A program made the position numbers and the translations under genes. DNA of 64,000 nt from a phage. Below the pieces are notes generated by a model. It did not search any database and was not told where the DNA came from. It saw nothing but the letters and a program-made list of their open reading frames with translations. Below, piece after piece: positions 2,926 to 5,365 of this stretch; the stretch's first letter is position 1, and the number at the start of each line of letters is the position of its first letter. The stretch is taken from assembly GCA_036252695.1 (NCBI GenBank), contig GCA_036252695.1_4122.1. One strand, given 5' to 3'.

Positions 2926-3264
2926 ATGCTTGAGTTTTTTAATTCAGATACAATGCTTAGTATTACTTTGATTTATCTGTTTGGTTTTTTCTTTTATCAT
3001 GCACTAGTTGTAGTACTATGGTATTTTAAAAAGAAAATCGTTTTCAAACTGTATCCTGATGGAAACATTTCACTACTTCTTTTCACTATTATCCAAGGTA
3101 TGTTTGCAATTGTTGGTCTTATCGCACACTTAATTTATTGTGCTAATCCACAGTTGAACTCAATATCACAATATATTGTATTCCTTGGATTACTAATTTG
3201 GGTGCTGATATACTTGTTTAATCTCATCATTAATGGTAGAGCAAAAATTCGTGGGGACTTCTAA
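2926..3264 (+). CDS. small multi-TM membrane protein (tandem set 1 of 7)
   Basis: Hydrophobic 112-aa ORF with basic C-terminal tail; first of seven coupled genes. Confidence 0.6.
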   Translation: MLEFFNSDTMLSITLIYLFGFFFYHALVVVLWYFKKKIVFKLYPDGNISLLLFTIIQGMFAIVGLIAHLIYCANPQLNSISQYIVFLGLLIWVLIYLFNLIINGRAKIRGDF

Positions 3265-3611
3265 TGTTTGAATCTTATCTTGAGTTTTTAAAGAGTAGTT
3301 CTGTTGCACATTCAATTGCAGGGATTATTCTAACAGGTTATGTAACATTTTGGGTAGTTATGTTTCTAGGATGGTATTTTAAACGACAATTCTATAAGCG
3401 TAATGGTGAAGATTTTATGAATTCTTTCATTAATCAATCGTTGTTTGCATCAACATTGATAGCATGTATTGTAGCAACACTCACAGGAAAGGTACTGCCA
3501 GCATTCTCCGCAGTTTACGGTACATTGGGTATGATATGTGTAGTTTTTTACTTGACCATTAAACTTTGTTGTGTTATGATTGAACTTCGAAACAAGATAC
3601 CGGAGGAATGA
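3264..3611 (+). CDS. small multi-TM membrane protein (2 of 7)
   Basis: Hydrophobic ORF; start overlaps previous stop (TAATG). Confidence 0.6.
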   Translation: MFESYLEFLKSSSVAHSIAGIILTGYVTFWVVMFLGWYFKRQFYKRNGEDFMNSFINQSLFASTLIACIVATLTGKVLPAFSAVYGTLGMICVVFYLTIKLCCVMIELRNKIPEE

Positions 3612-3946
3612 TGGAATATTTTTTACACTTACTGCCGTGGTATATGAAAGTTAGTACTATGTACTATATTCTTAGTGCTGGATTCTACTTTCTGATGTGG
3701 TTCTTCAAACGACCAATTTCAGTATTCATCTCTGATAACATGCTGCAATTAAAATTACACGCATGGTTTGGTATGGCGATGTTTATGCCTATTATTCACT
3801 ACTCAATGATTAGTAGAGGGTTCCGTTCCAATGGTGAACCAATAATATTAGTATTCTATTGGGGTTCAACTATTGCATATGTAAGTTTGTTGTTGTTCCC
3901 AGTCGTTCATAAATTACGTGCTAAAGTTCCTGATGCGAGGTACTAA
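3608..3946 (+). CDS. small multi-TM membrane protein (3 of 7)
   Basis: Hydrophobic ORF; ATGA overlap with previous gene. Confidence 0.6.
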   Translation: MMEYFLHLLPWYMKVSTMYYILSAGFYFLMWFFKRPISVFISDNMLQLKLHAWFGMAMFMPIIHYSMISRGFRSNGEPIILVFYWGSTIAYVSLLLFPVVHKLRAKVPDARY

Positions 3947-4260
3947 TGGATATCGTAACATTGATTTACACGCTTTATTCATTCTATTTTATTATGTGTT
4001 GGGTTGGATTTTTATTTGTATTGAAGATGTTTGATTATGTTGAAAAACAGATAAAAGAATTTTGTATTCCTTTTATTGGGTCAACCATAATTAGTATTAC
4101 TTGTTTGTATTATTTGGTATGTGATCCACCTGTTAATACAGCAATGATTGACTTCATGTTATTACCAACAACTGTTATTTTTTTATGTAGTCTGATGCCA
4201 CCGATTAGTCGTGGGCTAACCGAATTTAGACGCAATCAAAAGCGTAAACGAGGGATGTGA
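3946..4260 (+). CDS. small multi-TM membrane protein (4 of 7)
   Basis: Hydrophobic ORF; basic tail RRNQKRKRGM; coupled start. Confidence 0.6.
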   Translation: MDIVTLIYTLYSFYFIMCWVGFLFVLKMFDYVEKQIKEFCIPFIGSTIISITCLYYLVCDPPVNTAMIDFMLLPTTVIFLCSLMPPISRGLTEFRRNQKRKRGM

Positions 4261-4628
4261 TGGAAATTGCACTTATTATATTAACTTCTATGTTGTTTAT
4301 TAGTACAATTGTTATTATTGGTAAGTTCTTCTGTGTATCCTTCTTGGAAACCGTATACGATGAAATTGCTGATGATTATGAATTACATGCGGGATTTTTT
4401 ACTACGTATTGGATTAGTTTATTACTACTTATCACTGTATGGATTTTACATATATTCAAATGGGGTATGGTAGATGGTGATCCAGTACTGGCAATTATCT
4501 GTGTAGTGTTTGGTCTACTCGGTGGTGCTGTCCATAATCTGATGGTAATTTGGCAAACCGTACAATATGTATTAGTTCCACATTTTCAGAGAATGCACCA
4601 AAGCATCAAATACCGCAAACGAGGATAA
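4257..4628 (+). CDS. small multi-TM membrane protein (5 of 7)
   Basis: Hydrophobic ORF; ATGA overlap. Confidence 0.6.
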   Translation: MMEIALIILTSMLFISTIVIIGKFFCVSFLETVYDEIADDYELHAGFFTTYWISLLLLITVWILHIFKWGMVDGDPVLAIICVVFGLLGGAVHNLMVIWQTVQYVLVPHFQRMHQSIKYRKRG

Positions 4629-4629
4629 C

Positions 4630-4992
4630 ATGAATAATATTGAATTATCTTTTATTGGTCAATTAATGGTAATGGCGTATACATTTATCTTCTCACTGAA
4701 TGCATTCGTGTGCATTGGGAAGTACTTCCATAAGCGACCATTATCAAATATATATGATGTAATACAAAGGAGATATAGTCCAGCATATACTGTATTGAGT
4801 ACAGCATTCAATTTTGGTTTTATTCTAATGCTGGTTGCATTATTAACATCGAGTTTGAATTTTATAACATTTGGTATAATGGTATGTTCACTAACACTGT
4901 GTGTGGTTATTCTCTGTGCATCAGTTGAGTTGATGGCGTGGATGTATCATAAGATTTCCGAAATCCATGATCGTTTAGGTACGAGGGACTAA
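4630..4992 (+). CDS. small multi-TM membrane protein (6 of 7)
   Basis: Hydrophobic ORF; starts 2 nt after previous stop. Confidence 0.6.
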   Translation: MNNIELSFIGQLMVMAYTFIFSLNAFVCIGKYFHKRPLSNIYDVIQRRYSPAYTVLSTAFNFGFILMLVALLTSSLNFITFGIMVCSLTLCVVILCASVELMAWMYHKISEIHDRLGTRD

Positions 4993-4993
4993 A

Positions 4994-5365
4994 ATGAGTT
5001 ATCGTGAAATATTTTCAATCATTACTATTATTGTGTTTAGTTTAGGTTCTTTGATTTGGTTATTGTATTACTTCTGTGTAACCCCAGTATATAATATGCT
5101 AAATTCAGTTCGCTCTGATGTTGGTATTGTTTCTTTTATTATCTTCATGGCATATTATATGCTAAGTATCACAGGTTTGGTTTTGGTTGTTATCTTTGAC
5201 CTTGGACCGAATCAAGATGGTATGGAGATGTGGGAATTGATAACGATGTTTGCATGTATGATACCTGCATTTGGTGTATGTGCTGGTGTATTTTATGGGT
5301 TGTGTAAAGGTGTGAACTACTTAAAAAATATCCACAATACTATTCGTAAAAAACGTATGTTATAA
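4994..5365 (+). CDS. small multi-TM membrane protein (7 of 7)
   Basis: Hydrophobic ORF; basic tail TIRKKRML; followed by bidirectional terminator. Confidence 0.6.
   Translation: MSYREIFSIITIIVFSLGSLIWLLYYFCVTPVYNMLNSVRSDVGIVSFIIFMAYYMLSITGLVLVVIFDLGPNQDGMEMWELITMFACMIPAFGVCAGVFYGLCKGVNYLKNIHNTIRKKRML

What the first reader, a model, noticed from the sequence alone, without database searches (positions are those of the whole stretch)
2926..5365. Seven tandem, coupled small multi-TM membrane proteins with basic C-terminal tails
Seven consecutive 104-123-aa ORFs are strongly hydrophobic (3-4 predicted TM helices each) and end in short Lys/Arg-rich tails. They are joined by ATGA/TAATG overlaps. 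Possible roles include superinfection exclusion, immunity or holin/antiholin-like membrane functions; the paralogous multiplicity is unusual.
Basis: partly seen in the sequence, partly recalled or inferred. Interest (0 to 1): 0.6.

Follow-up and report, generated by a model that had tools for sequence, protein, structure and literature searches.

The report
Seven paralogous small phage membrane proteins
A jumbo E. coli phage carries a self-contained operon of seven diverged copies of one small three-helix membrane protein; the family is confined to RaK2-like giant phages, is real and under selection, but its function is unknown and it matches no characterised family.

Summary
Window 2926-5365 encodes seven tightly packed ORFs of 104-123 aa, all strongly hydrophobic. 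Four junctions overlap and two have a 1-nt spacer. The window comes from an Asteriusvirus, an E. coli jumbo phage of the PBECO4/121Q group.

The seven are true paralogues. They share N-out/TM1/a G(W/K)(Y/F)F(K/C) motif/TM2/TM3 and a C-terminal cytoplasmic helix. Leave-one-group-out profiles give z = 4-8.7 for six groups; m4 is weak. All seven show dN/dS of 0.1-0.5.

The cluster has its own sigma-70-like promoter (2868-2896), one of a recurring TTGACAGTACT class, and a bidirectional terminator (5371-5397).

The family is absent from Pfam, NCBIfam, PADLOC and the PDB. A profile search of 1.84 billion proteins found 19 representatives; those traced are from RaK2-like jumbo phages. The array always lies downstream of a T4 NrdC.10-like ATPase:
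- RaK2: 8 copies
- Munch: 4 copies
- XaC1: none
- Asteriusvirus: 7-9, plus a separate trio

Best reading: an early, non-virion, accessory family of inner-membrane proteins that conditions the host envelope, with exclusion or protection the likeliest role. A holin role is disfavoured. Function is untested and interest is modest.

The parts
2868..2896 (+). Sigma-70-like promoter TTGACA-17-TACTAT of the phage-specific class TTGACAGTACT...TAnnAT, about 30 nt upstream of the m1 start
   Evidence: The promoter scan scores it 10/12. The same extended motif occurs six times on the + strand of the window, each 30-45 nt upstream of an SD and ATG. It is conserved in MJ, 121Q and JNE01.
2926..3264 (+). 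m1, 112 aa, three-TM protein, subfamily A (C-terminal ...GRAKIRGDF)
   Evidence: AlphaFold2 gives three long helices at pLDDT 72. It matches phrog_19454. dN/dS is 0.25 against 121Q.
3264..3611 (+). m2, 115 aa, three-TM protein, subfamily A (C-terminal ...ELRNKIPEE, whose codons carry the GGAGG SD of m3)
   Evidence: It matches phrog_19046. hhalign probability against the m3 group is 95%.
3608..3946 (+). m3, 112 aa, the most conserved member (53-95% identity across lineages), with aromatic-rich TM1 and TM2
   Evidence: It matches phrog_27396.
3946..4260 (+). m4, 104 aa, the most divergent member, with the tail ...RRNQKRKRGM
   Evidence: It matches phrog_33258. Its sequence link to the other groups is weak: only one of four orthologues is significant. 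Membership rests on position, architecture and the tail motif.
4260..4628 (+). m5, 122 aa (123 aa if started at GTG 4257), subfamily B, with an invariant IGKFFC motif after TM1 and the tail ...HQSIKYRKRG
   Evidence: AlphaFold2 gives pLDDT 82 and pTM 0.71, with helices 2-22, 28-39, 41-66 and 76-122.
4630..4992 (+). m6, 120 aa, subfamily B (IGKYFHKRP motif)
4994..5365 (+). m7, 123 aa, subfamily B and last gene of the operon. Its tail ...IRKKRML is basic although no gene follows.
   Evidence: It matches phrog_27618.
5371..5397 (.). Bidirectional hairpin terminator AATCCAGTACTAT-AAT-AGTACTGGATT (12-bp stem), shared with the convergent RCC1-like gene 5402-6526
   Evidence: Folding gives -15.9 and -16.5 kcal/mol on the two strands, z about -5.8, with 0 of 200 shuffles as stable.
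2085..2858 (+). Context gene: a P-loop/AAA ATPase homologous to T4 NrdC.10, the conserved upstream neighbour of the array in every lineage examined
   Evidence: Synteny holds in 121Q, A4, JNE01, Munch, the L007 contig and RaK2.

Best explanation
The region is a self-contained, early-transcribed operon: promoter 2868-2896, seven translationally coupled genes, terminator 5371-5397. It encodes seven anciently diverged paralogues of a small three-pass inner-membrane protein family. In the public data searched here, that family was found only in RaK2-like jumbo phages.

Each protein is predicted to insert with its N-terminus in the periplasm and its C-terminus in the cytoplasm. The two best-conserved elements then sit at the inner face of the membrane. 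These are the G(W/K)(Y/F)F(K/C) motif after TM1 and a C-terminal helix with the pattern hydrophobic-x-x-hydrophobic-(R/H)-x-x-hydrophobic-(K/R).

The proteins were not detected in the virion. The array behaves as an accessory, expandable gene family rather than core machinery.

Most likely it is made soon after infection. It would then act in the host inner membrane, probably as homo- or hetero-oligomeric helix bundles, to condition the envelope of the infected cell. Candidate roles are exclusion of superinfecting phages or neutralisation of membrane-acting host responses.

Shown: gene structure, paralogy, purifying selection, regulatory motifs, taxonomic restriction and synteny. Inferred: membrane insertion and topology, early timing, oligomerisation and the protective role.
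For: Gene structure and coupling.

Paralogy:
- A shared architecture and shared motifs are visible in the 19-sequence alignment.
- Profile-profile links are g2-g3 95%, g5-g7 72%, g3-g5 69%, g5-g6 59% and g1-g2 50%.
- Leave-one-group-out HMMs beat block-shuffled decoys, with z 4-8.7 and 0/300 decoys reaching the real score for nearly all members of six groups; two g1 members were weaker, at 11/300 and 2/300.

Purifying selection acts on every member, with dN/dS of 0.1-0.5.

Topology: K/R residues sit mainly in loop 1 and the C-tail, while the N-terminus and loop 2 carry almost none. AlphaFold2 models show three TM helices plus a cytoplasmic extension.

Early timing:
- The promoter belongs to a TTGACAGTACT...TAnnAT class that recurs upstream of short genes in the window and is conserved in relatives.
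- In the related phage CBB, RpoD-like promoters mark the presumed early region of short ORFs, whereas late genes use ATAAATA (PMC5259590). No ATAAATA or TGAAACG motif lies in or before the operon.

Not virion-associated: phAPEC6 gp012c-gp017c are missing from the 62-protein structural proteome, while the neighbouring RCC1-like proteins are present (PMC7247149).

Accessory and expandable:
- Copy number is 0 in XaC1, 4 in Munch and the L007 contig, 8 in RaK2, and 7-9 in Asteriusvirus, with lineage-specific duplicates of m1 (121Q) and m4 (JNE01). A separate trio lies 6.6 kb upstream in phage MJ.
- There is a recombination breakpoint between the ATPase and m1.
Against: There are no functional data, no transcriptome for any of these phages, and no similarity to any characterised exclusion, immunity or anti-defence protein.

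The seven orthologous groups keep the same order across Asteriusvirus lineages whose proteins have diverged to 30-40% identity. Most of them also recur in RaK2. That pattern points to non-redundant, possibly jointly acting subunits rather than a freely varying arms-race family.

Periplasm-facing segments are not more variable than cytoplasmic ones, so there is no signature of diversifying interaction with incoming phages.

Absence from virion mass spectrometry is weak evidence for small hydrophobic proteins.

Sigma-70-like consensus matches occur at chance frequency in this AT-rich DNA: 25 found against 24 expected. The promoter call therefore rests on the extended motif and its conservation.
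Confidence: 0.4

Rival explanations
1. The seven proteins are subunits of one hetero-oligomeric inner-membrane complex, made in fixed ratios by translational coupling. The complex would work with, or anchor, the upstream NrdC.10-like P-loop ATPase as a membrane machine of unknown substrate, for example a transport or remodelling module.
For: The array lies downstream of the ATPase in every lineage that has it: Asteriusvirus, Munch, the L007 contig and RaK2. In Munch and L007 the first membrane gene starts 10 nt after the ATPase stop codon, with only an SD between them. Start/stop overlaps run through the operon. Seven distinct orthologous groups are retained in fixed order under purifying selection. 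The best-conserved elements face the cytoplasm, where an ATPase would dock.
Against: T4-like phages and the jumbo phage XaC1 keep the ATPase without any array. In this window the ATPase is 97% identical to JNE01 while the array is 31-53% identical to JNE01. Conversely the array is 95-100% identical to MJ, whose ATPase is only 60% identical. The two are therefore exchanged independently. Asteriusvirus has a separate promoter between them, and RaK2 has an unrelated 104-aa ORF there. Copy number runs from 4 to 9, with extra duplicates and a detached trio. No interaction prediction could be run.
Confidence: 0.2
2. They are lysis-timing proteins, namely holins, pinholins or antiholins of the class I type, which gate release of the signal-anchored endolysin used by this phage group.
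For: Their size (104-123 aa), three TM helices, predicted N-out/C-in orientation and charged C-terminal tail are the textbook hallmarks of class I holins such as lambda S (established knowledge; features shown). The endolysin of RaK2-like phages is predicted to carry an N-terminal TM or signal-anchor domain (PMC5259590). Such endolysins are usually partnered with small pinholins (established knowledge).
Against: The promoter is sigma-70-like and there is no late motif. The operon is not near the lysozyme: in fEgEco12, Gp275 lies at 118 kb and the array at about 327-332 kb. A T4-type holin candidate, Gp406c, lies at 247 kb, although on a weak HHpred match (PMC13070987 supplement). No holin Pfam or PHROG family matches any member. 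Seven to ten copies would be unprecedented for holins. XaC1 lacks the array entirely at the syntenic locus examined.
Confidence: 0.1
3. The ORFs are not real genes, or are fragments of one frameshifted gene. The hydrophobicity would then be a by-product of T-rich sequence.
For: The region has a negative AT skew, meaning T exceeds A on the + strand. Many antisense 'shadow' ORFs elsewhere in the window also score as hydrophobic.
Against: Each ORF has its own SD and start codon. Orthologues persist down to 30% identity with dN/dS well below 1. The ORFs share specific motifs, and their scores far exceed locally shuffled decoys. They lie in different frames.
Confidence: 0.01

Closest known systems
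Class I holins (lambda S105 / P22 gp13 type)
   Same: They are about 105-125 aa with three TM helices, predicted N-out/C-in orientation and a short charged cytoplasmic C-terminus. They are phage-encoded and predicted to sit in the inner membrane.
   Different: There is no sequence match to any holin family. The promoter is early-type, the operon is not in a lysis cassette, and there are seven or more paralogues per genome. The conserved G(W/K)(Y/F)F(K/C) and C-terminal motifs did not bring up any holin family in the Pfam scans.
T4 Imm / Sp and other small inner-membrane superinfection-exclusion proteins
   Same: They are small, early-expressed, non-virion inner-membrane proteins of a large virulent myovirus. 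They are accessory rather than core genes.
   Different: No sequence or profile similarity was found: no Pfam, PHROG or PADLOC hit to exclusion or immunity families. From memory, Imm has two TM helices and Sp one, and both are single-copy genes.
Unnamed PHROG families 19454, 19046, 27396, 33258, 26405 and 27618, and the 'putative membrane protein' genes of RaK2, K64-1 and Muenster
   Same: These are the same genes. Six of the seven window proteins match one of these PHROGs at E 1e-46 to 1e-61; m6 has no PHROG of its own. The RaK2/K64-1/Muenster array is homologous and syntenic.
   Different: PHROGs splits the family into separate groups of unknown function. The work here shows they form one superfamily with two subfamilies and a conserved locus.
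Tandem multigene families of large viruses (the Mbp membrane-protein genes of Staphylococcus Twort-like phages; ASFV MGF and poxvirus gene 'accordions')
   Same: They are arrays of diverged paralogues in the variable or early part of a very large viral genome, with copy number that changes between lineages. They are often membrane proteins of unknown or host-interaction function.
   Different: This is an analogy only, recalled from memory; MbpK of phage ISP appeared merely as a non-significant fold match. Here the seven orthologous groups and their order are much more stable than in a typical accordion.

Membership tests
RaK2-group small three-TM protein superfamily (unnamed; PHROGs 19454/19046/27396/33258/26405/27618) | Full-length match to one of the family's profiles | tested here: met
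   PHROG hits reach E 1e-46 to 1e-61 for six of seven proteins. All seven score E 1e-21 to 1e-29 against the superfamily HMM built here, partly by construction. Leave-one-group-out scoring is significant for six groups and weak for m4.
RaK2-group small three-TM protein superfamily (unnamed; PHROGs 19454/19046/27396/33258/26405/27618) | Architecture: TM1, then a G(W/K)(Y/F)F(K/C) motif, then TM2, then a (D/N/E)P loop, then TM3, then a C-terminal helix with the pattern hydrophobic-x-x-hydrophobic-(R/H)-x-x-hydrophobic-(K/R) | tested here: met
   Alignments A2 and A5, hydropathy and AlphaFold2 models.
RaK2-group small three-TM protein superfamily (unnamed; PHROGs 19454/19046/27396/33258/26405/27618) | Tandem array on the same strand, downstream of the NrdC.10-like ATPase | tested here: met
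   The window, 121Q, A4 and JNE01, Munch and L007 and RaK2.
Class I holins | Small protein with three TM helices, N-out/C-in orientation and a charged C-terminal tail | tested here: met
   Met by prediction only: hydropathy with the positive-inside rule and AlphaFold2. There is no experimental topology.
Class I holins | Sequence membership in a holin family | tested here: not met
   No holin Pfam family appears at E up to 1 for the seven proteins or at E up to 0.1 for 19 family members. No PHROG lysis category is hit.
Class I holins | Location in a lysis cassette next to endolysin or spanin genes | tested here: not met
   The neighbours are an ATPase and RCC1-like genes. In the close relative fEgEco12 the lysozyme and a T-type holin candidate lie more than 80 kb away.
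Class I holins | Late expression and lethal, timed hole formation | not testable with these tools
   Only promoter motifs are available. They are early-type, with no ATAAATA late motif.
T4 Imm-type superinfection immunity proteins | Sequence similarity to an Imm family | tested here: not met
   No Pfam or PHROG match to an immunity or exclusion family.
T4 Imm-type superinfection immunity proteins | Blocks DNA entry of superinfecting phage when expressed | not testable with these tools
   This requires plating or DNA-injection assays.
Known anti-phage defence or anti-defence components (PADLOC) | Match to a defence-system protein model | tested here: not met
   None of the seven membrane proteins matches any model.

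The most novel reading that the evidence does not exclude
The seven to ten paralogues assemble into a single hetero-oligomeric inner-membrane complex that docks the conserved NrdC.10-like ATPase. That would be a previously unrecognised phage-built membrane machine specific to RaK2-like giant phages, for example one that controls what crosses the inner membrane during the long infection cycle.
Probability: 0.12. Interest if true: 0.65.

Novelty: new member of a known kind. Interest (0 to 1): 0.3.

Why it matters
RaK2-like jumbo phages (Asteriusvirus, RaK2/K64-1, Munch) are being developed against E. coli, Klebsiella and Salmonella, yet more than 80% of their genes have no assigned function. This work turns 7-10 'hypothetical' genes per genome into one defined superfamily. 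The family now has a clear architecture, a fixed locus, a likely early expression class and a reconstructed history of copy-number change. That gives a compact and testable target: one 2.4-kb operon to delete or express. It can be used to ask how giant phages remodel the host inner membrane, and whether they exclude competitors. The finding is not surprising to a specialist, because large virulent phages commonly carry small early membrane proteins of unknown role.

Tried and rejected
1. Pfam, NCBIfam, PADLOC and PDB sequence searches of the seven proteins and of the family profile gave only sub-threshold, inconsistent hits.
3. I tried to use the Salmonella phages SD-1_S14 and SD-6_S16, in which m2 and m6 look truncated, as natural knock-outs. 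I rejected this because those records are fragmented throughout, with many 90-nt ORFs and genomes 25-40 kb short, so assembly error is likely.
4. The search for related loci with the broad alignments failed because no conserved 7-10-residue stretch exists. It worked with the m5-type alignment.
5. I tested whether periplasmic segments are hypervariable, as an arms-race signature. They are not.
6. Rfam and tRNA scans of the window found nothing.
7. Literature searches for Asteriusvirus, PBECO4 and RaK2 membrane arrays found no description of this family.
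Full report
**Identity of the window.** The region 2000-7000 is 92.6-97% identical over its full length to ten Asteriusvirus genomes. These include WPEC3, CMSTMSU, Ecwhy_1, fEgEco12 and vB_Ec-M-J. It is 81-88% identical to the PBECO4/121Q/phAPEC6 group over the part that holds the finding. These are E. coli jumbo myoviruses of about 350-385 kb.

**The observation.** The ORF listing shows seven consecutive + strand ORFs at exactly the stated coordinates, 104-123 aa long.
- GRAVY is 0.58-1.11, and six of the seven have three hydrophobic segments above the cut-off. m3 reaches it only at TM3; its other two segments are assigned by alignment.
- The junctions are TAATG, ATGA, TAATG and GTGA/TGATG, followed by two 1-nt spacers. 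A GGAGG/GAGG Shine-Dalgarno (SD) sequence lies inside the last codons of each upstream gene.
- The ORFs are in different frames and each has its own orthologues, so they are not one frameshifted gene.
- Of 205 ORFs of at least 45 aa in the window, only these seven match the family profile. The other 'hydrophobic' ORFs are antisense shadows.

Minor corrections apply. There are three TM helices rather than four. Two AlphaFold2 models show TM1, a short cytoplasmic helix, TM2, and a long third helix that continues into the cytoplasm. The m1 model has pLDDT 72, and the m5 model has pLDDT 82 and pTM 0.71. Only five of seven tails are net basic. m5 probably starts at ATG 4260.

**Are they paralogues?** Pairwise BLASTP between the seven is weak, at best E = 2e-5. 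I therefore built ortholog groups from four Asteriusvirus lineages: the window/MJ type, 121Q, A4 and JNE01.
- Global profile-profile comparison links g2-g3 (95%), g5-g7 (72%), g3-g5 (69%), g5-g6 (59%) and g1-g2 (50%).
- As a compositional control, I built an HMM from six groups and scored the seventh against decoys shuffled within 10-residue blocks, which preserves the hydropathy profile. Real sequences scored z = 4-8.7, with 0/300 decoys as good, for nearly all members of g1, g2, g3, g5, g6 and g7. Two g1 members were weaker (11/300 and 2/300). g4 was significant for only one of four members.
- The 19-sequence alignment shows what is shared. There is an acidic or neutral N-terminus and TM1, then a G(W/K)(Y/F)F(K/C)(K/R)(P) motif and a K/R-bearing loop. 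TM2, a (D/N/E)P loop and TM3 follow. The C-terminal helix has the pattern hydrophobic-x-x-hydrophobic-(R/H)-x-x-hydrophobic-(K/R).
- Two subfamilies are visible: m1-m3, ending ...LRxK(I/V)P(E/D), and m4-m7, ending ...(H/R)xx(I/L)..K(K/R)KR.
- In the m5 lineage, GKFFC, the tail His and two Lys are invariant from E. coli phages to Salmonella and Klebsiella phages.

**Are they real, selected genes?** dN/dS against 121Q, A4 and JNE01 is 0.11-0.49 for every member where dS could be estimated.

**Topology.** K/R residues sit mainly in loop 1 and the C-tail, and the N-terminus and loop 2 carry almost none. By the positive-inside rule (established knowledge) this predicts N-out/C-in. This is inference, not measurement.

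**Regulatory frame.**
- A TTGACA-17-TACTAT site lies at 2868-2896.
- On its own this would mean little, because such matches occur at the shuffled-sequence rate (25 found against 24 expected). However, it belongs to an extended class, TTGACAGTACT-N11/12-TAnnAT. That class occurs six times on the + strand of the window, each 30-45 nt before an SD and ATG. The site is conserved in MJ, 121Q and JNE01.
- For the related phage CBB, RpoD-like promoters were reported to mark the presumed early region of short ORFs. A TGAAACG class precedes replication genes and ATAAATA precedes structural genes (PMC5259590). Neither of those two motifs occurs in or before the operon.
- A 12-bp-stem bidirectional hairpin lies at 5371-5397, between m7 and the convergent RCC1-like gene. 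It folds at -16 kcal/mol, z about -5.8.
- The cluster is thus a discrete transcription unit of probable early class.

**Distribution.**
- Pfam, NCBIfam, PADLOC and PDB sequence searches give nothing.
- PHROGs places six of the proteins in six separate families of unknown function.
- A word-indexed search of 5.8 billion proteins returned 32 proteins. Those carrying a source name are from Asteriusvirus phages or E. coli assemblies.
- An exhaustive profile search of 1.84 billion cluster representatives returned only 19. Tracing the most distant ones located the family in three further places. One is a 362-kb contig (L007). Another is a group of Salmonella and Klebsiella jumbo phages: Munch, 7t3, SE_PL, PHA46 and fENko-Kae01. 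The third is RaK2 itself, via a metagenome contig.

**Comparative anatomy.** In every case the array follows, on the same strand, a P-loop ATPase that is about 41% identical to T4 NrdC.10.
- Munch and L007 have four members, starting 10 nt after the ATPase stop.
- RaK2, K64-1 and Muenster have eight, in the order g2, g2, g1, g3, g4, g5, g7 plus an eighth type. Some of these records annotate them as 'putative membrane protein'.
- Asteriusvirus has seven ortholog groups in fixed order. 121Q carries an extra m1 copy and JNE01 an extra m4 copy.
- Phage MJ has a detached trio, EcMJ_547-549, 6.6 kb upstream and just outside this window. JNE01 has a detached copy about 8 kb upstream.
- Xanthomonas phage XaC1 goes directly from the ATPase to the convergent RCC1-like genes, with no array. 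T4 has no such array after nrdC.10.
- The window is mosaic. Its ATPase is 97% identical to JNE01 and 60% identical to MJ. Its array is 95-100% identical to MJ and 31-53% identical to JNE01. A recombination junction therefore lies between the two, near the promoter.

**Other functional clues.**
- The phAPEC6 orthologues gp012c-gp017c are absent from the published 62-protein virion proteome, whereas the neighbouring RCC1-like proteins gp003-gp010 are present (PMC7247149). This is weak evidence, because small hydrophobic proteins are hard to detect.
- In fEgEco12 the lysozyme (Gp275) and a T4-type holin candidate (Gp406c, 220 aa, on a weak HHpred match) lie elsewhere in the genome (PMC13070987 supplement).
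- Within ortholog groups, TM1 and loop 1 are the best conserved (0.52 and 0.49) and TM3 the least (0.31). Periplasmic parts are not hypervariable.
- Fold searches give only non-significant or generic helix-bundle matches.

**Interpretation.**
- Best supported (0.4): an early, non-virion, accessory multigene family of N-out/C-in three-pass inner-membrane proteins that conditions the host envelope. Exclusion or protection is the most plausible role.
- Rival 1 (0.2): a hetero-oligomeric complex that works with the ATPase. Conserved synteny, coupling and fixed order favour it. Independent recombination, ATPase-only phages and variable copy number count against it.
- Rival 2 (0.1): holins or pinholins. 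The physical hallmarks fit, but the promoter class, the location, the copy number and the lack of family membership do not.
- Rival 3 (0.01): artefact. This is refuted.

**Novelty and score.** The genes are already deposited as hypothetical or 'membrane' proteins, and arrays of small early membrane proteins are ordinary in large virulent phages. What is new:
- the six PHROGs plus m6 are unified into one superfamily;
- its motifs are defined;
- its fixed locus is established;
- its history of copy-number change is reconstructed.

I rate this as a new member of a known kind, with interest 0.3.

Noticed in passing
whole window (for example 2874, 2889, 5376 and 5387; densest at 28-52 kb); also L001-L005, L007 and L013: The palindrome AGTACT (often CAGTACTG) occurs 265 times in 64 kb against about 22 expected from base composition, a 12-fold excess. 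GTACTG, CAGTAC and AGTACT are the three most over-represented hexamers. Density is 8.5 per kb in intergenic DNA and 2.6 per kb in coding DNA. The excess is shared by 121Q, A4, JNE01, Munch, the L007 contig and Xanthomonas phage XaC1 (7-14 fold), but T4 has none in 8.7 kb. No paper in the library mentions it together with jumbo phages. It could be a binding, modification or regulatory site for the whole clade.
   Followed up: partly
window 2868, 45982, 49807, 50088, 52643 and 60823 (+ strand): A phage-specific promoter class, TTGACAGTACT-N11/12-TA(T/C)(T/A)AT, recurs upstream of short + strand genes, each time 30-45 nt before an SD and ATG. The copy at 2868 also forms an 8-bp hairpin between the -35 and -10 elements.
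   Followed up: partly
window 2085-2926: There is a mosaic junction here. The NrdC.10-like ATPase is 97% identical (protein) to phage JNE01 but only 60% identical to MJ, 121Q and A4. The membrane array just downstream is 95-100% identical to MJ and 31-53% identical to JNE01. Recombination has therefore occurred between the two, near the promoter.
   Followed up: partly
L001 692-1727 (phage vB_Ec-M-J, EcMJ_547-549), about 6.6 kb upstream of the array and just outside the window start; JNE01 record 281128-281460: A second, detached mini-array of three members of the same family (112-114 aa, tails ...RNKIPEK...RDNLPER...RDKMPNR) brings the family to at least ten genes per genome.
   Followed up: partly
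window 3590-3611, 3930-3946, 4245-4260, 4615-4628 and 4978-4992: The conserved C-terminal residues of m2-m6 (…PEE, …ARY, …KRGM, …KRG, …TRD) are encoded by the same nucleotides that form the GGAGG/GAGG SD of the next gene. Part of the 'tail motif' may therefore be constrained by translational coupling rather than by protein function. m7, which has no downstream gene, still has a basic tail.
   Followed up: partly
window 5402-9631 and onward on the minus strand: A large convergent array of RCC1-repeat paralogues starts at 5402-6526, followed by 7287-8489 and 8501-9631. Their phAPEC6 counterparts are virion proteins. The strongly negative GC skew suggests minus-strand coding runs to about 33 kb.
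   Followed up: no
window 43-375 and 674-2017 (+): Two ORFs share a C-terminal module (…GYTETTT…IYEKWGGVKQ). Their Pfam hits are MUG113/T5orf172-like for the shorter ORF and a CapR homology domain for the longer one. These look like homing-endonuclease-type mobile genes next to the mosaic junction.
   Followed up: partly
L002 6105-6656 (phage A4), L015 9144-9740 (RaK2), L009 2572-2760: In A4 and RaK2 the array is followed by a 183-198-aa protein that starts with a basic segment, then has a TM segment and a Cys (…ALALSTTFVLTACDEP…). It is lipoprotein- or anchor-like and Ser/Gly-rich. It is absent after m7 in this window.
   Followed up: no
window 34000-64000 (+ strand): This is a dense run of short + strand ORFs (about 90-270 aa) with no tRNA and no Rfam match. 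It is typical of the 'early region of short hypothetical proteins' described for CBB.
   Followed up: no
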